A stretch of 36,986 nt of DNA from a virus (lineage: Duplodnaviria > Heunggongvirae > Uroviricota > Caudoviricetes), in the IMG/VR virus record IMGVR_UViG_2671180460_000002. One strand, written 5' to 3'. Shown here piece after piece: positions 1,242 to 36,130 of the stretch. The notes under the pieces are model-generated. The model searched no databases. It had not been told where the DNA came from and was given only the letters and a program-made list of their open reading frames with translations. The position numbers were made by a program, and so were the translations under genes. Every line of letters starts with the position of its first letter. Within the stretch, counting starts at the first letter, position 1.

Positions 1242-1478
1242 ATGATGGTTAGAAATGAAGTAATGAACCTGGACTGGCACCGCGAGTACATTGTCGCAGC
1301 TGTGCACACCAAAGGTTTTACATTGCGTGAACTGTCTGTTCGCGCTGGTCTAAAAAAAGACTCTTTAAAAAATGCATTGTATCGCTCATGCCCTAAATAT
1401 GAACGCATCATAGCCGATGCTATTGGTGTGGAACCTGCGGAGATCTGGCCAAGCCGGTATGCCAGTAAGGCGGCATAA
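1242..1478 (+). CDS. ner: Ner-like DNA-binding regulator
   Basis: Translation contains DWHREYIVAAV...IWPSRY, matching Mu Ner (DWHRADVIAG...IWPSRY). Stop overlaps the transposase start. Confidence 0.85.
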   Translation: MMVRNEVMNLDWHREYIVAAVHTKGFTLRELSVRAGLKKDSLKNALYRSCPKYERIIADAIGVEPAEIWPSRYASKAA

Positions 1479-3520
1479 TGTTTTATTCAGCCAATGAACT
1501 GGCCGGTCTTACTGGTTTGCCCGGTACAGTTCAGGGGGTGCGCTGGACGCTCAATCGGATCACAGAGACGCACCCGGAATGGAAGCGCAAGCGTGAAGGC
1601 ACCAAAGCATTCGAGTATCACATCGACTGCCTGCCCGCTGAAGCGCAGAAGGTTTTACGTAAGCGCCTGACTCATCAGGTCCTGGAAGATGCACAACTGC
1701 CCGCCGTGGTTGAGCAGAAGGCAGTTAAAAACGTCGCCGTTCGTGATGAACTGGAAGTGATGGTCAAATGCCCGGAACTGGCATTACGCGAAGTTCAGGC
1801 ACTGACCGACAAGCAAAAGGCCATCGCTGATGCGCGGATATTGCTGGCTACCGAAGTGCATAAACTGCGTGAATACGCAAGAATGTCCAGGACGGCAGCG
1901 ATAAAACACATTGTTGATGGTATCCGCCAGGAGGCTTTGCCCGAGCGCGTTATTGTGGCAGGTAATACCGCCAATGCCCGACAGGGTAAGCGAACTGGCG
2001 TCAGTACAGGGAGTTTACAGGAATGGTATTCCGCCTGGCTGATGGCGCGCGGTGATGCCAATCAGTTACTGGCGTTACTGGCTCCCGGTCATCATAAGGG
2101 AACACCGTGGGAGCAGGTTTGGTGGTTGAGCGATTTCTTTATGTTCTATCGCTCATGGAAGCGCCCGACCGTTGAATATGCGTATCGCGAGTTTTCAGCC
2201 TGGTGGCATGAAAAACACGCGAACGATGCGGGAATGCTGGCGGCACTGCCTTCAGTTCACGCAGTAAGACGGGTGTTAAGCAGCGTCCCGGTGATTGTTA
2301 AAGAGCGTTTCCGCTCCACCGGTTCAGCCTGGCGTTCGCTCAATCCCTTTGTGCGACGCGACTGGAGCACATTACCGGTTAATGCGGTATGGGTCGGGGA
2401 TGGTCACTGTATGAAAATGACCGCGTTTAACCCCCTGACCGGCAATATTTTCCGGCCAGAAGTGACGCTGGTTATGGATGCGGGGCAGCGCTTTGTTGTG
2501 GGCTGGTCGCTGTCCCTGTCGGAGAACGTGATAGCCGTTGCTGATGCGTTACGTTACGGCATGGCGCAGCACGGGATACCGCTGATTTATTACTCCGATA
2601 ACGGGGGCGGCGAAAAAAACCGGGTACTTGATGCCGATATTACCGGGATTCTGCCCCGTCTGGGTGTGGAACATCACACGGGGATACCAGGTAACCCACA
2701 GGGGCGCGGGGTGATTGAAAGGCTTAACAAGGAAATTCCCCGGGATGTGGCCCTGAGTTTCCGGACGTACTGCTCAAAGGGAGCAGACAAGGAAACCGTA
2801 ATGATGCAGCAACGGATTATGCAGTCAGCCATTAAGGCCACCCACAAAGGGAAAGAGCTGACAAAACGGCAGGTTAAGTCAAGGGATGAAATCCCCACCT
2901 TTGAGCAACTGATGGCAGCTATAGAGCTGGAGGTCAGACGCTATAACAACCGGCCACACAGCAGCCTTCCCCGCAAAGAGGATGGCGAATATTACAGTCC
3001 GGCAGCGTATCGCCGGAAACTGATAAAAGAACAGAATGTTGAAATTGATTTTCTGTCGCCGGAAGAGCTGCATGAAATGTTCAGACCGGAGGTGACGCGC
3101 AAAACATTTCGCGGGGAAATTCAGTTATTCAACAATATTTATTACTCGTATGAGCTGGCAGCAGAGCACGGAAATGAAGTCAGGGTTTGTTACGACATTC
3201 ACGACGCAAACAGCGTGATTGTCAGGCGGATGGACGGTTCTTATATCTGCGATGCCATCTGGAACGGTAATAAGGTTGATGCGTTCCCGAAAGCTGTTAT
3301 CGAACAGCAGCAGGAGAAACGCGCCAGAGGCCGCATTGCACGGGCCACGCAGAAAATCGAAGAGGCTAAACGCGAGCTTACCCCGGCTATTACGCAGAAG
3401 CCTGACTTTAATTTTGGATGTGGTCTGGAGCGTAAGGAGGAAAAGAAAAAAGAAGAACTTTATTTCTTTGCATCCGAGCGTGACCGCAATTTAAAGAAAG
3501 ACGGCACAAACAACCGTTAA
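1478..3520 (+). CDS. Mu-type DDE transposase (MuA-like)
   Basis: 680 aa, immediately after ner. N-terminal winged-helix-like region followed by a large catalytic core, size and position as for MuA (663 aa). Confidence 0.9.
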   Translation: MFYSANELAGLTGLPGTVQGVRWTLNRITETHPEWKRKREGTKAFEYHIDCLPAEAQKVLRKRLTHQVLEDAQLPAVVEQKAVKNVAVRDELEVMVKCPELALREVQALTDKQKAIADARILLATEVHKLREYARMSRTAAIKHIVDGIRQEALPERVIVAGNTANARQGKRTGVSTGSLQEWYSAWLMARGDANQLLALLAPGHHKGTPWEQVWWLSDFFMFYRSWKRPTVEYAYREFSAWWHEKHANDAGMLAALPSVHAVRRVLSSVPVIVKERFRSTGSAWRSLNPFVRRDWSTLPVNAVWVGDGHCMKMTAFNPLTGNIFRPEVTLVMDAGQRFVVGWSLSLSENVIAVADALRYGMAQHGIPLIYYSDNGGGEKNRVLDADITGILPRLGVEHHTGIPGNPQGRGVIERLNKEIPRDVALSFRTYCSKGADKETVMMQQRIMQSAIKATHKGKELTKRQVKSRDEIPTFEQLMAAIELEVRRYNNRPHSSLPRKEDGEYYSPAAYRRKLIKEQNVEIDFLSPEELHEMFRPEVTRKTFRGEIQLFNNIYYSYELAAEHGNEVRVCYDIHDANSVIVRRMDGSYICDAIWNGNKVDAFPKAVIEQQQEKRARGRIARATQKIEEAKRELTPAITQKPDFNFGCGLERKEEKKKEELYFFASERDRNLKKDGTNNR

Positions 3521-3537
3521 TTTAAAAGGTATTTAAT

Positions 3538-4431
3538 ATGAGTTTAATTACGCAATTAAATGACGTAATGGCCCGTCGCGGCTATACACAAACCCACGTT
3601 GCCCGTGCTATTGGTCGTAGCAGCGCCGTTATCAACCAGTATTTGCAGGGTAAATATCAGGGCGATATCACTGATATCGAAGAGCGAATTTCTGCCTTTG
3701 TCAGCCGTGAACGGGAAAAAGAAAACAACCGGCGTGTAAAAGCAAGTTTTGTGACTACAGGTATGGCCGCCAAAGGGTTGGAGGCACTGGCCTATGCTCA
3801 TCTGGAGTGTGAAATTAGCGTGTTGTATGGCGCGGCAGGTCTTGGCAAAACAATGATTTTGCGCGAATACGCCGCCAGAAACCGGGACGCAATACTGATT
3901 GAGGCTGACCCGGGCTATACAGCCAGGACACTGCTGGAGGAGTTGTGCCGCCAGTTGGGGGTAAAGGTTCGCGGCAATATTCACGAACTGATTAATGCCT
4001 GTGTACACGAATTGCGTGACTCCGGTCGCCTGCTGATGGTGGATGAAGCCGAACTGCTCCCCTATCGTGCGCTGGAAGTTCTGCGTCGTCTGCATGACAA
4101 GGCGGGCGTCGGTGTTGCCCTGGCTGGTATGCCGCGCCTGTTGATTAATCTTAAAGGCAATCGTGGGGAGTTCGCGCAGCTATACAGTCGGGTGGCTCTT
4201 TCGCTGGACCTCGGCGATACGCTGGCGCAGAAGGATTTCATCCAGATAGCCGCTGAACTGATGCCGGAAGCAGCAGCGCCTGAAATCTGTGAAGCACTTT
4301 ACACACGCTCACGGGGTAATGCCCGACGCCTGTTTAAACTTGTGCGTGGGGTCTACCGGATTTGTGATATCAGCGATGCCCCGGTCAGCGTGCAGGCTAT
4401 TGATGATTTCGCGGAAATGTTAATTCACTGA
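3538..4431 (+). CDS. MuB-like AAA+ ATPase, transposition target DNA activator
   Basis: 297 aa with Walker A GAAGLGKT and N-terminal HTH-like segment; directly downstream of the transposase as in Mu. Confidence 0.85.
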   Translation: MSLITQLNDVMARRGYTQTHVARAIGRSSAVINQYLQGKYQGDITDIEERISAFVSREREKENNRRVKASFVTTGMAAKGLEALAYAHLECEISVLYGAAGLGKTMILREYAARNRDAILIEADPGYTARTLLEELCRQLGVKVRGNIHELINACVHELRDSGRLLMVDEAELLPYRALEVLRRLHDKAGVGVALAGMPRLLINLKGNRGEFAQLYSRVALSLDLGDTLAQKDFIQIAAELMPEAAAPEICEALYTRSRGNARRLFKLVRGVYRICDISDAPVSVQAIDDFAEMLIH

Positions 4432-4777: not shown

Positions 4778-4815
4778 TGCAGCGCAGAACTGTTAATTCA
4801 CTGATGGAGAACAAA

Positions 4816-5043
4816 ATGATAGACAAGCAGACCATTAATGCCGTCCGTTCCCGTGCCCGTGTGGCCATCCACACCACCGGTGGTCGTGTAACGGGACAGC
4901 ATCACCGTTTACCTGTGGTTTATGCCTGCCCACCCGTGGGTGGTCCTGTATGGCCGGTAACGGAAATCATCCAGACATTCAGCGGCCTGCGTCGTGTGGT
5001 TAAAACGTCCTGTATCGACGGCTGCACCGTCGTATGGCAATAA
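4816..5043 (+). CDS. hypothetical protein
   Basis: ATG at 4816 preceded by GGAG; the track ORF from 4726 probably over-extends. Confidence 0.35.
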   Translation: MIDKQTINAVRSRARVAIHTTGGRVTGQHHRLPVVYACPPVGGPVWPVTEIIQTFSGLRRVVKTSCIDGCTVVWQ

Positions 5044-11682: not shown

Positions 11683-11710
11683 CAGCCCCTGCCTTGCAGG
11701 GGCTTTTTTG
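11683..11710 (+). terminator. intrinsic terminator ending the early operon
   Basis: AGCCCCTGC-ctt-GCAGGGGCT stem-loop followed by TTTTTTG, 6 nt after the GemA-like stop. Confidence 0.7.
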
Positions 11711-11713
11711 TGG

Positions 11714-11743
11714 TCTGTACAGGCGATCATGTATGGCTATAAT
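11714..11743 (+). promoter_or_regulatory. putative sigma70-type promoter for the Mor/C-family gene
   Basis: Consensus -10 TATAAT at 11738-11743, 30 nt upstream of the start codon; -35 is weak (TGTACA). Confidence 0.4.
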
Positions 11744-11772: not shown

Positions 11773-12240
11773 ATGCAGACCTTCAGTGAAACAGATCTTC
11801 GCGATGCGCAGGCACTACTGCCCGATTCCGTGCAGCAACTGATTAGCGTGATTGGCTTTCCCGCTCTGACCCGGTTAATTCGTTCTTTTGGTGGTGTGAC
11901 GTTAAGCGGTAAAACCGGCGCACACACCGAACGCACCGGCGGTGTCCATGCCCTGTTACATGACGTGCTGACCGAAGACGAAATCAACAAACTGATCCGC
12001 TTTCTTGGCGGTGCGCCGTTTTATATTCCCCGTTGCGATCATGCGTTACGTGCCCTGCGTAACTCCCGTTTTATGGCTGATTTACAGCAACATATAAAAG
12101 GCGGATGCTCACACCGGCAGGCGCTGGCACTGCTTTGTCCACGTTACGGAATTTCAGACCGGTACGCATGGCAACTGATACACCGACGACAAAAACAGAT
12201 TTCGCTGAAGAGCCCCACCCAGGTGGGGCTTTTTGATTAA
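11773..12240 (+). CDS. Mor/C-family transcriptional activator (late gene activator)
   Basis: Contains the Mor-family ...GGAPFYIPR... segment followed by a C-terminal HTH-like region; located after the early terminator and before the lysis and structural genes. Confidence 0.8.
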   Translation: MQTFSETDLRDAQALLPDSVQQLISVIGFPALTRLIRSFGGVTLSGKTGAHTERTGGVHALLHDVLTEDEINKLIRFLGGAPFYIPRCDHALRALRNSRFMADLQQHIKGGCSHRQALALLCPRYGISDRYAWQLIHRRQKQISLKSPTQVGLFD

Positions 12241-13056: not shown

Positions 13057-13342
13057 CGTTGCCGGCATTGTTAACGTCTGGCTGTGTGTCGCCATTGTGT
13101 TCGGGTTGTTTGTGTACCGCCGTAAAGGGGCTGTTCATAAACCTGCGGTCACCTGGGCGGCGTACTGGCTGATGCTCTGGTACGCCATCATCCCGTTCCG
13201 CTGGTTGTTTGGTACGTACACCCACTCCAGCTGGCTGGTTGTGGCGCTTAATCTGGTGTTCTGTGCGCTCATCGTGTGGGCACACGGGAATTTGTCGAAA
13301 ATCCTTTCGTTACTGAGGTATCCATATGAAATCAAAAGATGA
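13046..13342 (+). CDS. putative membrane protein (holin or antiholin candidate)
   Basis: ATG at 13046 preceded by GGAGGGGG; three hydrophobic segments; directly upstream of the endolysin. Confidence 0.45.
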   Translation: MVSSVAGIVNVWLCVAIVFGLFVYRRKGAVHKPAVTWAAYWLMLWYAIIPFRWLFGTYTHSSWLVVALNLVFCALIVWAHGNLSKILSLLRYPYEIKR

Positions 13343-13871
13343 AATCTTTGACAGCGTTCTGGGTAAAGAAGGCGGTTACGTCAATCACCCGGATGATAAA
13401 GGTGGCCCGACCAAATGGGGAATTACGGAAAAAGTCGCCCGCGCTCACGGATACCGTGGCGATATGCGCGATTTAACCCGTGAACAGGCGCTGGAAATCC
13501 TTGAGGCCGATTACTGGTACGGTCCGCGCTTTGACCAGGTCGCCGCGTTATCCTCTGATATTGCCGCAGAGCTGTGTGATACCGGCGTGAATATGGGGCC
13601 ATCCGTGGCGTCAAAAATGCTTCAGCGCTGGCTGAATGTGTTCAATCTGTGCGGGAGGATGTACCCGGATATGGACGCAGACGGACGCATCGGGCCTCGT
13701 ACTATCAGTGCATTGCGCGCATTCCTGAATTATCGCGGTCAGGACGGCGAACGGGTGATGCTGAAGGCTCTGAACTGTACACAGGGCGACCGCTATCTGA
13801 CGCTGGCAGAGAAACGCGAGGCTAACGAATCGTTTGTTTATGGCTGGCTGGAGGAGCGCGTGGCGGTATGA
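13326..13871 (+). CDS. endolysin, GH108-type lysozyme with C-terminal peptidoglycan-binding region
   Basis: N-terminal motif VLGKEGGYVNHPDDKGGPTKWGIT is the GH108 signature; GAGGT RBS. Confidence 0.85.
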   Translation: MKSKDEIFDSVLGKEGGYVNHPDDKGGPTKWGITEKVARAHGYRGDMRDLTREQALEILEADYWYGPRFDQVAALSSDIAAELCDTGVNMGPSVASKMLQRWLNVFNLCGRMYPDMDADGRIGPRTISALRAFLNYRGQDGERVMLKALNCTQGDRYLTLAEKREANESFVYGWLEERVAV

Positions 13872-14071: not shown

Positions 14072-14392
14072 ATGAAACAAAAAGAAAACACTGCGATTGC
14101 TCTGACGGAAGCCGCTGTTCCCGGGCGTCCATTTAAGTTCGGACTGACGCAGGTTGTGGCTTTGCACGTCAGCGGAGAATGCGGGGAAATTAAAGCCCGT
14201 ACCCAGTATGCAGATGGTGAAAACCGTTATCTGATTTATTACCAGGACGCCCGCAAGGCAGCACAGCTGAAATGGTTTGGTGAGTCCATGCTGGAAATGA
14301 TTGAGGATATCCGCCATCCCGGAATGCCTGTATTTGCAGTCACCGAACTACCTGATGGCGCAACGGTTTCAGATACCCGGAAGGGCGTTTGA
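14072..14392 (+). CDS. hypothetical protein
   Basis: 106-aa ORF between the lysis genes and small terminase. Confidence 0.4.
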   Translation: MKQKENTAIALTEAAVPGRPFKFGLTQVVALHVSGECGEIKARTQYADGENRYLIYYQDARKAAQLKWFGESMLEMIEDIRHPGMPVFAVTELPDGATVSDTRKGV

Positions 14393-14892
14393 TGGCGTGG
14401 TCGCAGGATATCAGGGACAAAGTCCGTAACGGGTACATCTTTGACCAGCTTCCGCTGGATATCGTCGCCATGAAGTACGCCGTGCCGCACGACACCGCGC
14501 GGCGCTGGAAAACGCAGGCGATGAAGAACGGCGACGACTGGGACAAGCTGCGGGCCGCTCACGCGCTCGCCGGTGACGGGCTGGAAAGTGTCGCCCGCAC
14601 CGTGCTTATCAGTCTGGTGGTGAAGTGTCAGACGACGCTTGAACGGCTGAATCAGAACCCGGACATCCCGCCGCGGGAGTCCGTCGAACTGCTGGCGAGT
14701 CTGTCTGACAGCCTCAGTAAGGCGGTGGCCAGCAGTAAAAAAATCCTGCCGGAAACCGACCGGCTCGCCACGGCACTGGAAGTGGTGCAGCGGCTCGGCG
14801 CGTTCATCAGGGACCGTCACCCGGCGCAGTATGCCCCGTTTCTTGAGGTGCTCGAAAGCTTCGCTAAAGAGCTTGAGGATAATTTCAGTTAA
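14392..14892 (+). CDS. putative terminase small subunit (Mu gp27-like, DUF1804-type)
   Basis: ATG at 14392 overlapping the upstream TGA; HTH-like N-terminus; position upstream of the large terminase. Confidence 0.55.
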   Translation: MAWSQDIRDKVRNGYIFDQLPLDIVAMKYAVPHDTARRWKTQAMKNGDDWDKLRAAHALAGDGLESVARTVLISLVVKCQTTLERLNQNPDIPPRESVELLASLSDSLSKAVASSKKILPETDRLATALEVVQRLGAFIRDRHPAQYAPFLEVLESFAKELEDNFS

Positions 14893-14938
14893 CCACAGCG
14901 GCCCGGTTTTCCGGGCCGTCTGATATTCGGGATTTGTA

Positions 14939-15679
14939 ATGCAAAAACAGATTATTGGTAACGCAACGTTGTATTGCGGTGATGTTCTTGATGTGCTGCC
15001 GGCGTTATCTGAACGTTTTGATGCCGTCATTACCGACCCGCCTTACAGCAGTGGTGGCACACACAAATCAGACCGCAGTATGGCCCCTTCGGACAAGTAT
15101 GTCGGTCACACCCACTATGCCGAGTTCAGCGGGGATAACCGCGACCAGCGCAGCTGGGCATACTGGAGCACCCTGTGGATGTCCGGGGCTGCCCGCCTTG
15201 TGCGCCCCGGTGGTTATTTCATGGTGTTCAGTGACTGGCGACAGCTTCCCACCATGACCGACGTTTTTCAGGCCGGTGGTGTGCTGTGGCGTGGTCTGGT
15301 TGTCTGGGATAAAACGCAGGCTTCCCGTGCGCCACACACTGGCTATTTCCGGCATCAGGCCGAGTATGTGGTCTGGGGCAGCAACGGAAAACTCGACAAA
15401 TGCCCGCACGGTGGCCCGTTCCCGGGTGTGATTACGCAGCGTGTTGTCCCGTCCGCAAAACTGCACATGATCGCAAAGCCGGTTCAGCTGATGGCCGAGC
15501 TGGTTAAACCGCTGGCACCGGATGCGCACGTTCTCGATCCGTTTATGGAAAGTGGCACCACCGCCATCCCTGTACTTGCCCGTGGCGGACGGTTTACCGG
15601 CATTGAAATGACTAACCAGTATTTTGATATCGCCTGCGCACGTATCGAAAAAGCGCAGGCAGAAGCAGCGCAGGTGTGA
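14939..15679 (+). CDS. DNA methyltransferase, beta-class amino-MTase (N6-adenine or N4-cytosine)
   Basis: Motif IV DPPY (AVITDPPYSSGG) near the N-terminus and motif I (LDPFMESGTT) near the C-terminus; this order defines the beta class. No restriction partner nearby. Confidence 0.85.
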   Translation: MQKQIIGNATLYCGDVLDVLPALSERFDAVITDPPYSSGGTHKSDRSMAPSDKYVGHTHYAEFSGDNRDQRSWAYWSTLWMSGAARLVRPGGYFMVFSDWRQLPTMTDVFQAGGVLWRGLVVWDKTQASRAPHTGYFRHQAEYVVWGSNGKLDKCPHGGPFPGVITQRVVPSAKLHMIAKPVQLMAELVKPLAPDAHVLDPFMESGTTAIPVLARGGRFTGIEMTNQYFDIACARIEKAQAEAAQV

Positions 15680-15680
15680 C

Positions 15681-17321
15681 GTGGCAAAACGTAAACTTTC
15701 CATTAAAGAGTTTCAGAGAAGCCTGCAGGAGTACATCGCCAACCTCCGCCAGACCATCGAGGCTGAATGTCTGGGGTTCGATGTTAACCCGCAGGCCACA
15801 CAGGCCCGCCGGGCGGCAGTCTGCGACCCGGTGACGGGCTACGATTATTTTGTCGAAAACTATTTTCCGCACTATGTCCGCAACCCGGCAAAAAGTGAGC
15901 TGCATAAATACCTGTTCAGCCGTCTGCCACAGGTTGTGGCAAGCCCGGCCCCGGAGAACGACGCCATCGCCGCCCCCCGTGGTGAAGCAAAATCCACGCT
16001 GGTGACTCAGCTGTTTACCCTGTGGACCATTATCCGGGCCATTAAACATTACCCGGTCATCATTATGGACAGTATCGACCAGGCTTACCCGATGCTGGAA
16101 GCCATCAAGGCTGAACTGGAATTTAACCCCCGTTTAAAAAACGATTTCCCGGAAGTGTGCGGACAGGGCCGTGTCTGGCGTATGGGGACCATCGTCACGG
16201 TCAACAATATCAAGGTGACCGTTGCCGGTAGTGGTAAAAAACTGCGTGGTCTGCGCCACGGCCCGTACCGTCCTGACCTGGTCATCCTCGACGACATCGA
16301 GAACGACGAGATGGTGCGTAACCCGGAGCAGCGCGACAAGCTGCATGACTGGCTCACCAGAACCGTGATGCCGCTGGGCGAGGCTGGCGGTAAAACCGAT
16401 ATTATTTATATCGGGACTATCCTGCATTACGACTCGGTATTGTCCCGCACCCTGGATAACCCGATGTGGAAAACGGCCCGCTTTAAGGCGGTCATTCAGT
16501 GGCCTGCCAACATGAAGCTGTGGGACGAGTGGGAAGAACTCATCCGCAACAAACAGCCGGAAGCGGCGGAGGCACTTTATCAGCAGAACGAAGCCGACAT
16601 GCTCGCCGGGTCGGTGGTGTCATGGGCGGCGCGCCCACTGCTGGCGCTGATGAAAATCCGTGTCCGTGACGGTCACGACACCTTTGATTCTGAATACCAG
16701 AACGACCCGGTCAGCGGTGAAGATGCGCTGTTTGCGGGCTGCATTAAGTTCTGGGTTAACCGTCTTGATGAATGGGTGTTTTATGGTGCTGTTGACCCCA
16801 GTCTCGGGAAGAAGAATAAAAACCGCGACCCGTCGGCCATTCTCGTGGGGGGCTTTAACCGTTTTACCGGCATTCTGGATGTGGTTGAAGCCGATATCCG
16901 CCGACGTCTGCCAAACAAACTTATCGAAGACGTGATTAAGTATCAGCGGGAATACCACTGTCTGTGCTGGTCGTTTGAGTCCGTCCAGTTTCAGGAGTTT
17001 CTGCGTACCGTGCTGGTTGAGCGTTCGGCGGCGCTGGGCGTGCCGGTTCCGGCGCTGCCGGTCATCCCGCTGGAGGATAAGGCGCTGCGCATTGAGTCCC
17101 TTCAGCCGCATATGGCCAACGGCCTGATTCGTATCAGCCACACACATCAGACGCTGATTGACCAGCTGCGCCACTACCCCAAAGCCGACCACGATGATGG
17201 CCCGGACTGTCTGCACATGCTGTGGACGCTGGCGGTATCGCGCAGCGCAAAATTTCAGATTCACACCCCACGCAGCACCGGGCGTGACCGTGGCGGGCGT
17301 TTTGGTTCAGGAGGATGGTAA
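15681..17321 (+). CDS. terminase large subunit (Mu gp28/E-like)
   Basis: About 546 aa from GTG 15681; Walker-A-like GEAKST; acidic nuclease-like C-terminal region; upstream of portal. Confidence 0.8.
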   Translation: MAKRKLSIKEFQRSLQEYIANLRQTIEAECLGFDVNPQATQARRAAVCDPVTGYDYFVENYFPHYVRNPAKSELHKYLFSRLPQVVASPAPENDAIAAPRGEAKSTLVTQLFTLWTIIRAIKHYPVIIMDSIDQAYPMLEAIKAELEFNPRLKNDFPEVCGQGRVWRMGTIVTVNNIKVTVAGSGKKLRGLRHGPYRPDLVILDDIENDEMVRNPEQRDKLHDWLTRTVMPLGEAGGKTDIIYIGTILHYDSVLSRTLDNPMWKTARFKAVIQWPANMKLWDEWEELIRNKQPEAAEALYQQNEADMLAGSVVSWAARPLLALMKIRVRDGHDTFDSEYQNDPVSGEDALFAGCIKFWVNRLDEWVFYGAVDPSLGKKNKNRDPSAILVGGFNRFTGILDVVEADIRRRLPNKLIEDVIKYQREYHCLCWSFESVQFQEFLRTVLVERSAALGVPVPALPVIPLEDKALRIESLQPHMANGLIRISHTHQTLIDQLRHYPKADHDDGPDCLHMLWTLAVSRSAKFQIHTPRSTGRDRGGRFGSGGW

Positions 17322-17324
17322 TTA

Positions 17325-18920
17325 ATGGCACAGCTTGTTGATATTTACGGACGCCCGCTGAAACGTGAGGCACTCAAAACCACGCAGACGGTCAGAGTGG
17401 CGGAACGGCTGCGCATTTATCCAGACCACCCGTCGCGTGGTCTGAACATCAGAAAACTGCCGCGCATTCTGGAAGCCGCCGAGCGTGGTTATCTTCCTGC
17501 GCAGGCGATGCTGTTTGCGGATATGGAAGAGCGTGACGGGCACCTGTTCGCCGAGATGGAAAAGCGCAAAAAAGCGTTGCTGACGCTGGACTGGTCGGTG
17601 GAGCCGCCCCGCAATGCCTCGAAGGCAGAAAAGGAGCTGGCCGCCGCCGTGGATGAGTGGCTGCACGGCATCCCGGACATGGAGGACATCATCCTCAACG
17701 GGATGAGCAGTGTCGGTTACGGCTTCAGCTGTCAGGAAATCAGCTGGGCGTTCGTGGATAAAACGTGGTTACCGGATGCGGTGACGCTGCGCCCGCATAA
17801 CTGGTTCATAACCCTGCCGGAACACAATGACGAACTCCGGCTGGATGACGGCGGTCGCGGGGAAGATGGTAAGGACGGTTCCGCACTGTGGCCGTTCGGC
17901 TGGCTGGTTCACCGTTACAACGCCCGGTCGGGGCTCCTGGGTTCATCCGGCCTGTTCCGCGTACTGGTCTGGCCGTATCTGTTCAAAAACTTTGCGCTGC
18001 GTGATATGGCGGAATTCCTGGAGATTTACGGCCTTCCGGCGCGTATTGCGTACTATGCACAGGGCACCAGTGACGAAGACCGGGACAACATTCTCGAAGC
18101 CCTGGTCAATCTGGGCCATGAAGCGGTGGCAGCCCTGCCGCAGGGTAACGAGATTGAGTTCAAGGAGGCCGCGTCCGGCGGACCGGAGGCGTTCATGTCG
18201 ATGGTGGAATGGGCAGAGCGCACCACCTCAAAAGCAATTCTGGGCAGTACGCTGACCAGCCAGGCTGACGGTAAAACCTCCACCAACGCGCTGGGTAATG
18301 TGCATAACGAGGTCCGGCACGACATTCTGGCCGCCGATGCGCGCCAGCTGTCCGGCATGTTCAGCAGCCTGATACAGATGATGGCCAGCCTGAACGGCTG
18401 GCAGGATATCCCGCCACGCCGTCTGCCGCGTCTGGTGTTTGATGTGCAGCAGGAAGCCGACATTAAGGGCGTGGCGGAAGCCGTCAGTGTGCTGGTCAAC
18501 AGTGTGGGGATGAAGGATATCCCGGCGTCGTGGGTGCGCAAAAAAACCGGTATCCCCACCCCGAAAGACGGCGAAGAGGTGCTGGTGCCGGTGGCACAGC
18601 GTCTCCCTGTGCAGGCGGGCCACAGCCAGCTGCGTGAGCGGATGAATGTTGCCGCACTCAGTCAGCAGGACAACGGGGAGGACGACCTGGCACAGAACGC
18701 CATCGACCGGGCAGAGCTTCCGGCAGAGGCCATCGCGCAGGGGATGAACGAACTGGTGGCCCCACTGGTGCAGGCCATACAGGAAGGCCGGGATGCAGAC
18801 GAGGCCATGAACATACTGGCGGAAGCCTGGCCGGAACTGCCGGATGAAACACTGCGGCAGTTGCTGACACAGGCATTCTTTGTGGCGGATATCTGGGGGC
18901 GACTGAATGCCGACAGCTGA
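17325..18920 (+). CDS. portal protein (Mu gp29/H-like, DUF935-type)
   Basis: 531 aa immediately after the large terminase; AGGAGG RBS; Mu-like synteny. Confidence 0.8.
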   Translation: MAQLVDIYGRPLKREALKTTQTVRVAERLRIYPDHPSRGLNIRKLPRILEAAERGYLPAQAMLFADMEERDGHLFAEMEKRKKALLTLDWSVEPPRNASKAEKELAAAVDEWLHGIPDMEDIILNGMSSVGYGFSCQEISWAFVDKTWLPDAVTLRPHNWFITLPEHNDELRLDDGGRGEDGKDGSALWPFGWLVHRYNARSGLLGSSGLFRVLVWPYLFKNFALRDMAEFLEIYGLPARIAYYAQGTSDEDRDNILEALVNLGHEAVAALPQGNEIEFKEAASGGPEAFMSMVEWAERTTSKAILGSTLTSQADGKTSTNALGNVHNEVRHDILAADARQLSGMFSSLIQMMASLNGWQDIPPRRLPRLVFDVQQEADIKGVAEAVSVLVNSVGMKDIPASWVRKKTGIPTPKDGEEVLVPVAQRLPVQAGHSQLRERMNVAALSQQDNGEDDLAQNAIDRAELPAEAIAQGMNELVAPLVQAIQEGRDADEAMNILAEAWPELPDETLRQLLTQAFFVADIWGRLNADS

Positions 18921-20621: not shown

Positions 20622-20774
20622 GTGGCCAGAAGCGCGCTGTAATCATCTGTGACAACATAAACGCCTCACGGATGAGGCATTACAGCACCGCACCCCATAA
20701 ATGCTGTCAGAATCGTTTTTAAAATGGTTTTAAAAACGGTTTTATTTCCCCTTTTATCCTTTCGCGTTATGGCA

Positions 20775-34788: not shown

Positions 34789-35591
34789 TGCAGAATTTAA
34801 TGCCCCCGGTGAATACGCCGGATAAGTTATTTCATGATGGTGACCCGACTCAGGGAATTGAGGGAACCATCGTTACTGCTGAATTTATGAATAATCATCA
34901 GGCAGCAACGCGTGATTTGCAGCAGGAGGTGATTAACGTCCTTAAAGAAGCTGGCGTCACCCCTGACCCGGAAAAACAAAACCAGCTGGTTGAGGCGCTG
35001 ACCTCGTTTATTGGCCAGAAAGTCCCGGATGCATCACTGACGCAAAAAGGTGTAGTGCAGCTTAACAGTGCTGTTAACAGTGAATCAGAAACAGAAGCAG
35101 CTACGCCAAAAGCGGTCAAGATTACGATGGATAACGCAAACGCCAGACTGGCAAAAGACCGTAACGGCGCAGACATCCCGAATAAACAATTGTTTCTGGA
35201 TAACATCGGCGGTGCGCCGAAAACGCGCAAAATTAACAATATGCCCCTGACGTCGGATATCACCATCAGCAACATCGGCGGCAACGCCGGAACGGCAACC
35301 CGCCTTCAGACGGCCCGCAGGATTAACAATGTGCTGTTTGATGGCACCAGTGATATCACCATCAGCACCACCGATTCTGGTGCAGTACGTAATTTCAGAT
35401 ACACCAGCGAAGTGTTTCACAATCCCGGTGGTAACGAAATTTCCTGGGTATTCCGCGCGCCTTCAGGGTGTATTTTGTCAGGTATTAACGTTCAGGAAAC
35501 TGGCAAAAGCTCTGCGGATAACATCGGTGGTGTGTATTACAAACAAACTCAGATTTATATCAATGGCGGATGGCGCACGGTATCCGGCTAA
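34788..35591 (+). CDS. tail fibre protein (Mu S-like position)
   Basis: Contains KGVVQLNSAVNSESETEAATPKAVK, the conserved tail-fibre motif seen in lambda Stf and P2 H; strong GGAGG RBS; followed by an assembly chaperone. Confidence 0.75.
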   Translation: MQNLMPPVNTPDKLFHDGDPTQGIEGTIVTAEFMNNHQAATRDLQQEVINVLKEAGVTPDPEKQNQLVEALTSFIGQKVPDASLTQKGVVQLNSAVNSESETEAATPKAVKITMDNANARLAKDRNGADIPNKQLFLDNIGGAPKTRKINNMPLTSDITISNIGGNAGTATRLQTARRINNVLFDGTSDITISTTDSGAVRNFRYTSEVFHNPGGNEISWVFRAPSGCILSGINVQETGKSSADNIGGVYYKQTQIYINGGWRTVSG

Positions 35592-35605
35592 TTAAGGAGA
35601 AAATA

Positions 35606-36130
35606 ATGGAACTCAGAAACGTCACACGTTATTACCCTGAAAATATGCCTTATGGTGAAAATATTCAGTATTTCCGCAGTAAAGACGGACATGATTTTTA
35701 TGAATCACAGGATAAATTCACGAAGAAATACAAATTGTGTATTCACCCTGAAACCGGCGTGATTTATTCAATGGCGGAAGACGTTTCCCGTCTTTATCCT
35801 GTTGGTTTTACCATTGTGGAAGTGGACGAATTGCCTGAAGGGTTTGGTATTGAAGCCAGCTGGTATTACCGGGACGGCGAAGTACTGCCGGTGCCCGTTG
35901 ATTACCCACGATTATCAGAAAAACAACGCCAGCGTCTGCTGAATGAAGCAAAGGACATCACTTCTGACTGGAAAACCGAACTGGAGCTGGGCACCCTCAG
36001 CGATGATGACAAAGCCCGTCTTACGCAGTGGATGGAATATATCAAAGCGGTAAAGGCGCTGGATTTAAGTCAGGTCATTGATGAATCTTCCTTTTATTTA
36101 ATTCAGTGGCCGGAAAAACCTGACGTGTAA
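35606..36130 (+). CDS. tail fibre assembly protein (Tfa/U-like)
   Basis: ATG at 35606 after AAGGAG; about 175 aa directly downstream of the fibre gene. Confidence 0.75.
   Translation: MELRNVTRYYPENMPYGENIQYFRSKDGHDFYESQDKFTKKYKLCIHPETGVIYSMAEDVSRLYPVGFTIVEVDELPEGFGIEASWYYRDGEVLPVPVDYPRLSEKQRQRLLNEAKDITSDWKTELELGTLSDDDKARLTQWMEYIKAVKALDLSQVIDESSFYLIQWPEKPDV

What the first reader, a model, noticed from the sequence alone, without database searches (positions are those of the whole stretch)
14893..15679. Solitary beta-class DNA methyltransferase between small and large terminase genes
The ORF has DPPY (motif IV) before the FxGxG-like motif I, the beta-class amino-MTase arrangement, and has no restriction endonuclease partner. 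It sits in the late packaging operon, so it would be made when progeny DNA is packaged, consistent with protecting phage DNA from host restriction. A strong hairpin (CGGCCCGG-TTTT-CCGGGCCG, 14899-14918) precedes it. Mu itself uses Mom at the right end; this is a different solution at a different locus.
Basis: partly seen in the sequence, partly recalled or inferred. Interest (0 to 1): 0.6.

Follow-up and report, generated by a model that had tools for sequence, protein, structure and literature searches.

The report
Orphan phage DNA methylase, probably inactivated
A Mu-like E. coli prophage carries an ordinary solitary adenine-methylase gene just ahead of its large terminase gene, but this copy has a mutation in the cofactor-binding motif that most likely kills the enzyme.

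Summary
ORF 14939-15679 (246 aa) is a beta-class N6_N4 DNA methyltransferase with DPPY before motif I, and its model has the CcrM/M1.HpyAVI/RsrI fold. It lies between a DUF1804 gene and TerL in a Mu-like prophage. The window has no mom, no com and no detectable restriction enzyme.

Three corrections:
- The hairpin at 14899-14918 is real, but 19 near-identical E. coli prophages that lack the methylase also have it. It belongs to the backbone, not to the gene.
- The methylase is a 743-bp single-gene cassette (14928-15670). Relatives fill the same DUF1804/TerL gap with other genes. Homologues sit in late operons of P2-like phages, often behind a Mu Com-like gene.
- This copy reads FMESG where 120/120 close and 143/149 distant homologues have glycine (G204E). 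It also carries T178I. In M1.HpyAVI, the closest solved homologue, changing that glycine to alanine cripples AdoMet binding. No complete E. coli genome (0 of 5426) has this allele.

The family is plausibly a late-expressed anti-restriction methylase and is under purifying selection. It is an ordinary member of a known kind, and Mu-like prophages that use m6A methylases in place of Mom are already published. Interest is low.

The parts
14392..14892 (+). DUF1804 gene (166 aa from ATG 14392). It occupies the small-terminase position, but that role is not demonstrated.
   Evidence: Pfam PF08822 at 2.2e-52 and PHROG 756 'DNA binding protein' at 1.6e-66. RefSeq annotates the E2348/69 orthologue as a DUF1804 family protein. 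No terminase family matched.
14899..14918 (+). GC-rich hairpin (8-bp stem, 4-nt loop) just after the DUF1804 stop codon. It is a backbone element, possibly a leaky terminator or an RNA 3' stabiliser.
   Evidence: Folds at -22.3 kcal/mol, z = -3.06, and is unique in the window. It fails the terminator-like scan. It is identical in MTase-less prophages. Buttiauxella and Intestinirhabdus relatives keep the stem but have different loops.
14928..15670 (+). Segment specific to MTase-carrying prophages: a 743-nt single-gene cassette made of an 11-nt leader and nearly the whole ORF. MTase-less relatives have TGCATAC (TGTATAC in UMNF18) in its place.
   Evidence: Alignment of the window and E2348/69 against tcmA_3 and UMNF18. 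The match spans 1521 nt against 785 nt in the record.
14939..15679 (+). Beta-class N6_N4 DNA methyltransferase ORF (246 aa), identical to WP_057698357.1.
   Evidence: Family matches. AF2 model with pLDDT 84 whose top Foldseek hits are CcrM, M1.HpyAVI, M.BceJIV, PvuII and RsrI. Exact-sequence look-up.
15035..15046 (+). Motif IV, DPPY (aa 33-36), intact.
   Evidence: Read directly from the sequence. DPPY is present in 119 of 120 close homologues, and D33 in 143 of 150 representatives.
15470..15472 (+). Codon 178, ATC (Ile), where homologues have Thr in the H-x-T-x-K-P motif. This substitution is private to the window.
   Evidence: Thr in 120 of 120 close homologues. Among the 150 representatives the counts shown are T 108, A 27, S 4, V 3, C 3, N 2, with no Ile among them. 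Private against 8 E. coli alleles.
15536..15562 (+). Motif I, DPFMESGTT (aa 200-208). Codon 204 (15548-15550) is GAA (Glu) instead of GGA (Gly).
   Evidence: Gly in 120 of 120 close homologues and in 143 of 149 residues at that column among representatives. No complete E. coli genome has the private bases. G197A in M1.HpyAVI cripples AdoMet binding (PMC5173035).
15672..15683 (+). AGGTG Shine-Dalgarno sequence for TerL inside the last MTase codons, then the MTase stop TGA (15677-15679), then the TerL GTG start (15681).
   Evidence: Read directly from the sequence. RefSeq places the TerL start 2 nt after the MTase end in E2348/69. MTase-less prophages and other genera keep the same AGGTGTGACGTG-type junction.
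15681..17321 (+). Large terminase subunit.
   Evidence: PHROG 38 at 5.5e-143, TIGR01630 and the RefSeq terL annotation.

Best explanation
The ORF is a single-gene cassette for an orphan beta-class, DPPY-type (N6-adenine) DNA methyltransferase. It sits in a variable accessory-gene slot between the DUF1804 gene and TerL of a Mu-like E. coli prophage.

Inferred mechanism for the family:
- The gene has no promoter of its own. It is transcribed with the lysis and head genes from the late operon that follows the Mor/C-family activator gene.
- It is translated just ahead of TerL. Its stop codon lies 1 nt before the TerL GTG start, and the TerL ribosome-binding site lies inside its last codons.
- It would methylate replicating phage DNA before headful packaging, so that progeny escape restriction in the next host. 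Mu's Mom has this role, as do the m6A methylases of FluMu-type prophages.

Shown for this copy: it carries three private amino-acid changes, E173A, T178I and G204E. G204E replaces the first glycine of the AdoMet-binding FxGxG motif. This allele is therefore most likely unable to bind AdoMet and is a recently inactivated gene, while the rest of the cassette and TerL expression stay intact.

The preceding hairpin belongs to the phage backbone. It is probably a weak terminator or RNA stabiliser after DUF1804, not a methylase regulator.
For: Identity:
- PF01555 at 73.7 bits, PHROG 67 at 1e-50, PADLOC MTase_II at 8e-63.
- Motif order IV before I.
- AF2 model (pLDDT 84) matches CcrM, M1.HpyAVI, M.BceJIV, PvuII and RsrI at E of 1e-15 to 1e-10.
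- 51% identity to Bordetella phage BPP-1 Bpm, which is annotated as an adenine methyltransferase.

Orphan status: no mom, com or REase-like protein in the window.

Cassette and slot:
- Of 55 complete E. coli genomes with a match, 35 have the gene between DUF1804 and TerL and 19 have DUF1804 directly next to TerL. One more (RM9088) keeps MTase and TerL but has lost DUF1804. Flanks are 97-98% identical, and the difference is a clean 743-nt against 7-nt replacement.
- The same position is used in Buttiauxella, Intestinirhabdus, Edwardsiella, Serratia and 12 IMG/VR contigs, including phages whose TerL is only 33-36% identical.
- D3112 and a Klebsiella Mu-like phage hold unrelated genes in this gap.
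- In P2-like phages, homologues sit behind Com-like genes, or between gpL and gpR, or between tail-fibre assembly (or a resolvase/invertase gene) and sheath.

Selection: pN/pS is 0.0-0.09 between alleles of one group.

Inactivation:
- G204 is Gly in 120/120 close and 143/149 distant homologues.
- T178 is Thr in 120/120 close homologues.
- All three changes are private against 8 E. coli alleles and 12 cluster members.
- The best match among 5426 complete genomes still differs at all 4 private bases.
- The allele is on 2 contigs, against 512 for the commonest allele.
- In M1.HpyAVI (same FMGSG motif) G197A is 'crucial' for AdoMet binding, and the same glycine is essential in EcoKI and EcoP15I (PMC5173035).

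Expression: no sigma-70-like promoter lies upstream of the gene, and no canonical terminator lies on the + strand between the holin gene and the end of the head block. The TerL junction is conserved.
Against: - No activity, methylation or transcript data exist for this gene or any close homologue, and its recognition sequence is unknown.
- The effect of G204E is inferred from a 22-24%-identical enzyme and from other classes. One of the 150 distant representatives also has Glu at this column, and a few have Ala, Cys or Asp, so residual activity cannot be excluded.
- The private branch shows 3 non-synonymous against 3 synonymous changes. This is compatible with relaxed selection but is too few events to prove it.
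- Anti-restriction is the conventional reading for orphan phage methylases, not something tested here.
- Late expression rests on synteny with Mu.
Confidence: 0.7

Rival explanations
1. One reading: this copy is an active late methyltransferase that methylates progeny DNA and protects it from host restriction.
For: Motif IV DPPY, the H-x-x-x-K-P motif, E223 and the rest of motif I (D, P, F, S, G, T, T) are intact and the ORF is full length. The family is under purifying selection. The gene is in a late-operon context.
Against: G204E lies at a glycine that is invariant in 120/120 close and 143/149 distant homologues. The milder G to A change in the closest solved homologue cripples AdoMet binding (PMC5173035). 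A second private change sits at T178, and the allele is rare.
Confidence: 0.15
2. The methylase, in its active alleles, serves the phage's own regulation or packaging rather than anti-restriction. One possibility is marking DNA for terminase, as Dam methylation does at the P1 pac site. Another is epigenetic control of phage or host genes.
For: The gene is wedged between the two packaging-module genes and is translationally linked to TerL. In other Mu-like contigs homologues sit next to TerL or the portal.
Against: Nineteen of the 55 matching E. coli genomes carry prophages with 97-98% identical DUF1804 and TerL that lack the gene altogether, so packaging does not depend on it. In P2-like phages the same family sits in tail-gene slots or behind Com, which fits portable cargo rather than a packaging component. 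No promoter is available for expression in the lysogen.
Confidence: 0.08
3. The enzyme family methylates cytosine N4 rather than adenine N6. Beta-class enzymes include both types.
For: PF01555 covers both N6A and N4C enzymes. Foldseek hits include N4C enzymes (rotifer N4CMT, M.PvuII) at scores similar to the N6A hits.
Against: Motif IV is DPPY. The N4C-type relative examined here (phiE125 gp56, similar to the Cfr9I methylase) has SPPY, as is typical of N4C enzymes (established knowledge). The best sequence and fold matches are N6A enzymes (M1.HpyAVI, CcrM, M.BceJIV). Source annotations of homologues say adenine-specific.
Confidence: 0.05

Closest known systems
Orphan beta-class phage DNA methyltransferases of PF01555 / PHROG 67, for example Bordetella phage BPP-1 Bpm and the methylase of Escherichia phage Chuche
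   Same: Same family (51-54% identity over about 94% of the length), same size, same motif order, single gene with no restriction partner, carried by temperate phages.
   Different: The genomic position and regulation differ. Here the gene lies between DUF1804 and TerL of a transposable phage and is coupled to TerL. In Chuche and many P2-like prophages it follows a Com-like gene. This copy also has G204E.
M1.HpyAVI of Helicobacter pylori (PDB 5HFJ/5HEK), the closest solved structure
   Same: Beta-class N6-adenine methyltransferase of about 230 aa with DPPY and the identical motif I sequence FMGSG in normal alleles. Foldseek E = 8e-15.
   Different: Only 22-24% identical. It belongs to a chromosomal H. 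pylori system and is not a phage gene. The TRD regions are unrelated, so its specificity cannot be transferred.
Hia5 / Hin1523 / Nma1821, the non-specific m6A methyltransferases of Mu-like prophages (Drozdz et al. 2012, PMC3299994)
   Same: These Mu-like prophages also lack Mom and carry an AdoMet-dependent adenine methylase instead, which is silent in the lysogen and presumed to act late against restriction.
   Different: Those genes sit at the mom position at the right end, behind a com homologue, and have DPPY near residue 194, so their motif order and subfamily differ. The gene here is beta-class, lies in the DUF1804/TerL gap, and the window has no com.
Mu Mom/Com
   Same: Same presumed biological purpose: late modification of phage adenines against restriction.
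   Different: No sequence or chemical relationship. Mom makes N6-(1-acetamido)-adenine and is controlled by Com, C and Dam/OxyR. Neither mom nor com is present in this window.
Phage 'morons' and accessory-gene slots in late operons, such as the P2 slot between tail-fibre assembly and sheath
   Same: A single dispensable gene, present or absent between conserved late genes in otherwise near-identical phages.
   Different: Classical morons bring their own promoter and terminator. This cassette has neither and relies on read-through and coupling within the operon. The P2-like copies do have their own downstream terminator hairpins.

Membership tests
Beta-class (group beta) amino-DNA methyltransferase, Pfam N6_N4_Mtase PF01555 | Profile match above the curated threshold | tested here: met
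   73.7 bits against a cut-off of 26.7. PADLOC MTase_II at 8.4e-63.
Beta-class (group beta) amino-DNA methyltransferase, Pfam N6_N4_Mtase PF01555 | Circular permutation: catalytic motif IV (D/S-P-P-Y) N-terminal to AdoMet motif I (FxGxG), with the TRD between them | tested here: met
   DPPY at aa 33-36 and motif I at aa 200-208.
Beta-class (group beta) amino-DNA methyltransferase, Pfam N6_N4_Mtase PF01555 | Fold of solved beta-class enzymes | tested here: met
   AF2 model with pLDDT 84 and pTM 0.84. Foldseek top hits are CcrM 6PBD, M1.HpyAVI 5HFJ, M.BceJIV 8URK, PvuII 1BOO, MboIIA 1G60 and RsrI 1NW6, at probability 1.00.
Beta-class (group beta) amino-DNA methyltransferase, Pfam N6_N4_Mtase PF01555 | Intact AdoMet-binding motif I, with glycine at the first G of FxGxG | tested here: not met
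   The window has FMESG. Gly occurs in 120/120 close and 143/149 distant homologues. All 8 other E. coli alleles sequenced here have Gly. So this copy is a member by descent but probably not by activity.
Beta-class (group beta) amino-DNA methyltransferase, Pfam N6_N4_Mtase PF01555 | AdoMet-dependent methyl transfer to adenine N6 (or cytosine N4) in DNA | not testable with these tools
   This needs expression followed by SMRT or nanopore sequencing, or a radiometric assay.
Orphan (solitary) methyltransferase | No cognate restriction endonuclease encoded nearby | tested here: met
   Nothing nuclease-like was found among the window ORFs scanned with Pfam, PHROGs and PADLOC. The E2348/69 prophage annotation lists none. 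Restriction enzymes are poorly covered by profiles, so the absence is not absolute.
Mu Mom/Com modification module | A mom homologue with an upstream com zinc-finger gene at the right end | tested here: not met
   After the tail-fibre assembly gene (35570-36130) no ORF exceeds 79 aa.
Hia5/Hin1523-type non-specific m6A methyltransferases of Mu-like prophages | Located at the mom position behind com, with motif I before DPPY (DPPY near residue 194) | tested here: not met
   The position is the DUF1804/TerL gap and DPPY is at residue 33. The family's features are taken from PMC3299994.
Rho-independent terminator (for the hairpin at 14899-14918) | GC-rich stem-loop immediately followed by a U-rich tract | tested here: inconclusive
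   The stem is strong (-22.3 kcal/mol), but the tail TCTGATATT fails the scan criterion of 5 T in 8 bases. The Buttiauxella and Intestinirhabdus versions have more T-rich tails. Read-through must occur, because TerL lies downstream.
Small terminase subunit (for the upstream DUF1804 gene) | Membership of a recognised TerS family, or demonstrated pac binding | tested here: not met
   Only DUF1804 and PHROG 756 'DNA binding protein' match, and NCBIfam gives nothing. Its position directly upstream of TerL in D3112-like and other Mu-like phages is the only argument for the label.

The most novel reading that the evidence does not exclude
The presence/absence polymorphism (35 genomes with the gene against 19 without it among near-identical E. 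coli prophages) and the point-inactivated allele seen here could reflect balancing selection. Methylation helps against Type I-III restriction but exposes the phage to methylation-dependent (Type IV, Mrr-like) restriction. Lineages would then repeatedly lose or kill the cassette, while the backbone keeps a conserved 'socket' (the hairpin plus the TerL ribosome-binding site) into which single-gene cargo is swapped without disturbing terminase expression.
Probability: 0.1. Interest if true: 0.4.

Novelty: new member of a known kind. Interest (0 to 1): 0.18.

Why it matters
It matters little on its own. The finding adds one more orphan phage methyltransferase, already auto-annotated in RefSeq, and documents its cassette boundaries and a natural loss-of-function allele.

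Its practical value is as a caution. A motif-level reading ('FxGxG-like') hid the one residue that decides whether the enzyme works.

The natural series of E. coli prophages would make a clean experimental system for measuring what an orphan late methylase contributes to the host range of a transposable phage. The series comprises prophages with an active-looking allele, with the G204E allele, and without the gene.

Tried and rejected
- **Hairpin as a methylase-specific regulator or Com-type target.** Rejected. It is base-for-base identical in prophages lacking the gene, and the window has no com.
- **Hairpin as a known RNA family.** Rfam gave no match at E up to 1 in 14300-15900.
- **Own promoter for the methylase (classical moron).** No sigma-70-like site lies upstream, and no motif is shared with other intergenic regions.
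- **Antisense or alternative-frame genes.** The long ORFs 14239-15030(-), 15068-15703(-) and 14955-15257(+) hit no Pfam family and are treated as spurious.
- **Burkholderia phage phiE125 as an experimental precedent for a homologue.** Its methylation is restricted to induced phage DNA (Smith and Jeddeloh 2005, seen only as a reference in PMC4553209). Rejected as a homologue: gp27 shares only the DPPY tetrapeptide, with DPPY at residue 176, so it has a different motif order. gp56 is a distant SPPY-type enzyme. It remains an analogy only.
- **Recognition specificity from the literature.** Searches for the protein accessions and for E2348/69 methylome data returned nothing usable, so specificity stays unknown.
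- **Megablast of the region against the phage collection.** No match. This prophage type is not among the deposited phage genomes at the 85% identity level or above.
- **T178I as independent proof of inactivation.** Weakened. Among distant representatives Ala, Ser, Val or Cys occur at this position, so only G204E carries real weight.

Full report
**What is at the coordinates**

The window is a Mu-like transposable prophage of E. coli. On the + strand it carries, in order:
- a repressor region, then the Mu A-type transposase (1478-3520) and the B-type ATPase (3538-4431);
- a GemA-like gene and a Mor/C-family activator (11773-12240);
- two holins and a GH108 endolysin (13326-13871), then two small ORFs;
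- a DUF1804 gene (14392-14892), the ORF in question (14939-15679) and TerL (GTG 15681-17321);
- a Mu-type portal (17325-18920), then head and tail genes, ending with a tail-fibre assembly gene at 35570-36130.

The exact 246-aa protein is WP_057698357.1. It is on record on two contigs, the longest being a 37,210-bp contig of assembly GCA_009799095.1. The finding's start (14893) includes the 46-nt intergenic region. The ORF itself starts at ATG 14939.

**Identity of the ORF**

- It matches Pfam N6_N4_Mtase (73.7 bits against a cut-off of 26.7), PHROG 67 'DNA methyltransferase' (1.4e-50) and PADLOC Type II MTase (8.4e-63).
- DPPY lies at residues 33-36 and motif I at residues 200-208, which is the beta-class permutation.
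- An AlphaFold model built on 35 homologues (pLDDT 84, pTM 0.84) finds CcrM, M1.HpyAVI, M.BceJIV, TTHA0409, M.PvuII, M.MboIIA and M.RsrI as best PDB matches.
- By sequence, the closest solved protein is M1.HpyAVI (1.2e-12).
- The closest isolated phages are Escherichia phage Chuche (54%) and Bordetella phage BPP-1 Bpm (51%, annotated as an adenine methyltransferase).
- DPPY points to N6-adenine rather than N4-cytosine. A distant phage relative of the Cfr9I methylase type has SPPY.
- No restriction-enzyme-like protein, no mom and no com were found anywhere in the window.

**The hairpin**

CGGCCCGG-TTTT-CCGGGCCG is exactly at 14899-14918. It folds at -22.3 kcal/mol (z = -3.06), and its core occurs once in the window against none expected.

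It is not a property of the methylase gene. Among 5,426 complete E. coli genomes, 55 carry this prophage region:
- 35 have DUF1804-MTase-TerL;
- one has a copy truncated by IS66;
- 19 have DUF1804 directly followed by TerL, with 97-98% identical flanks.

Aligning both kinds shows that the hairpin and the following TCTGATATT are identical in the MTase-less prophages. The difference is a clean replacement: 743 nt (14928-15670) in the window against TGCATAC (TGTATAC in UMNF18). Both versions rejoin at CAGGTGTGAC-GTG, which is TerL's Shine-Dalgarno sequence and GTG start.

Buttiauxella and Intestinirhabdus relatives keep the GGCCCGG/CCGGGCC stem with different loops and more T-rich tails. The window's version fails a simple terminator criterion, and Rfam has nothing there. 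I read it as a backbone element after DUF1804, either a leaky terminator or a 3' stabiliser. That is inference only.

**The gene as cargo**

- The DUF1804-MTase-TerL order recurs in Buttiauxella, Intestinirhabdus, Edwardsiella and Serratia genomes and in 12 IMG/VR contigs. Some of these phages have TerL only 33-36% identical.
- Other transposable phages fill the same gap differently. D3112 has a reverse-strand orf25, a Klebsiella Mu-like phage has three small ORFs, and Serratia has an extra short ORF.
- Homologues of 54-70% identity sit in P2-like phages. There they lie behind a Mu Com-like gene (Chuche, Salmonella, 23 IMG/VR loci), or between gpL and gpR, or just upstream of the tail sheath gene after a tail-fibre assembly or resolvase gene. 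Each has its own downstream terminator hairpin.
- GC content matches the flanks (0.568 against 0.566 for TerL).

This is a portable late-operon accessory gene, not part of the packaging machinery. 'Small terminase' for DUF1804 is only a positional label.

**Expression logic (inferred)**

- No sigma-70-like promoter precedes the gene.
- No canonical + strand terminator interrupts the block from the holin to the end of the head-morphogenesis genes.
- A strong terminator and a promoter-like site bracket the Mor/C-family gene upstream.

By synteny with Mu's lys operon (established knowledge of Mu late transcription), the methylase would be made late, together with lysis and packaging proteins. Its TGA stop (15677-15679) lies 1 nt before TerL's GTG, with AGGTG inside its last codons. 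This junction is conserved across genera and is retained when the cassette is absent.

**Is this copy functional?**

- The window reads DPFMESGTT, while the E2348/69 orthologue (98% identical) reads DPFMGSGTT.
- All 120 closest database homologues have Gly at this position, as do 143 of 149 aligned representatives from a library clustered at 50% identity.
- Against eight E. coli alleles, the window has six private nucleotide changes. Three are synonymous and three are not: E173A, T178I and G204E.
- T178 is Thr in 120/120 close homologues but varies among distant ones.
- No complete E. coli genome carries any of the four private bases in 15440-15580.
- The allele is on 2 contigs, against 512 for the commonest allele.
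[quoted passage not shown] The authors note that the same glycine is essential in M.EcoKI and M.EcoP15I (PMC5173035).

A Gly to Glu change is harsher, so this copy is most likely unable to bind AdoMet. Elsewhere the gene is constrained: pN/pS is 0.0-0.09 within an allele group. That argues the family is useful to the phage and that this allele is a recent loss.

**Comparison with what is known**

Orphan phage methyltransferases are commonplace. The specific idea that Mu-like prophages lacking Mom carry an m6A methylase instead was shown experimentally for Hia5, Hin1523 and Nma1821 (PMC3299994). Those enzymes sit at the mom position behind com and have the opposite motif order, so the present gene is an analogue at another locus, not a member of that subfamily. 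phiE125 gp27, another experimentally studied late phage methylase, is also not homologous. RefSeq already names this protein 'DNA-methyltransferase'. I found no paper on it, and its recognition sequence is unknown.

**Verdict**

The gene is an ordinary new member of a known kind, and interest is low. The modestly interesting residue is the natural allelic series (active-looking, G204E, absent), together with the conserved 'socket' in front of TerL.

Noticed in passing
window 11684-11743 and 12208-12233: A strong bidirectional terminator hairpin (AGCCCCTGC-CTT-GCAGGGGCT followed by a T run) is followed by the best sigma-70-like promoter in the region (TGTACA-16-TATAAT). Both lie just upstream of the Mor/C-family activator gene. 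A second GC hairpin with a T run closes that gene. It looks like a self-contained middle-to-late switch unit.
   Followed up: no
window 20711-20741: An AT-rich near-perfect palindrome (AATCGTTTTTAAAA-TGG-TTTTAAAAACGGTT) lies in the gap before the protease/scaffold gene. It is a candidate regulator or late-promoter site for the second late operon.
   Followed up: no
L005 (phage Chuche) 3778-4720; L023 (Salmonella); L135-L161 (IMG/VR): Homologues of this methylase (54-56% identity) in P2-like phages sit immediately behind a gene about 60% identical to Mu Com. The Com translational switch is thus paired with a beta-class methylase outside Mu-like phages. Com-methylase pairs are already known for B3 and FluMu (PMC3299994).
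   Followed up: partly
L087 (D3112) 3503-4039; L086 (Klebsiella phage) 3494-4399; L016/L017 (Serratia) about 4800-5000: The gap between DUF1804 and TerL is a variable slot in transposable phages. It holds a reverse-strand orf25 in D3112, three small ORFs in a Klebsiella phage, and an extra ORF of about 65 aa before the methylase in Serratia.
   Followed up: partly
window 15161-15267 (aa 75-109 of the methylase): E. coli alleles fall into two groups that differ by about 24 amino-acid changes, which among the cluster members cluster in residues 75-109. The rest of the gene is nearly identical. This looks like a recombinant mosaic segment in the helix after motif IV.
   Followed up: partly
L004 (E. 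coli RM9088) 1-2549: This prophage copy is truncated by an IS66 element. Homology to the window resumes right at the DUF1804 stop codon. The hairpin, the methylase and TerL are retained and everything upstream is lost.
   Followed up: no
L027 (contig labelled Vagococcus sp. WN89Y): A contig assigned to a Gram-positive genus carries an enterobacterial-type Com-methylase pair that gives the same kind of hit as the Salmonella locus. This may be contamination or a mislabelled assembly.
   Followed up: no
window 14239-15030 (-) and 15068-15703 (-): Two long antisense ORFs (263 and 211 aa) overlap DUF1804 and the methylase. They have no family matches and are presumably by-products of GC-rich coding sequence.
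   Followed up: yes
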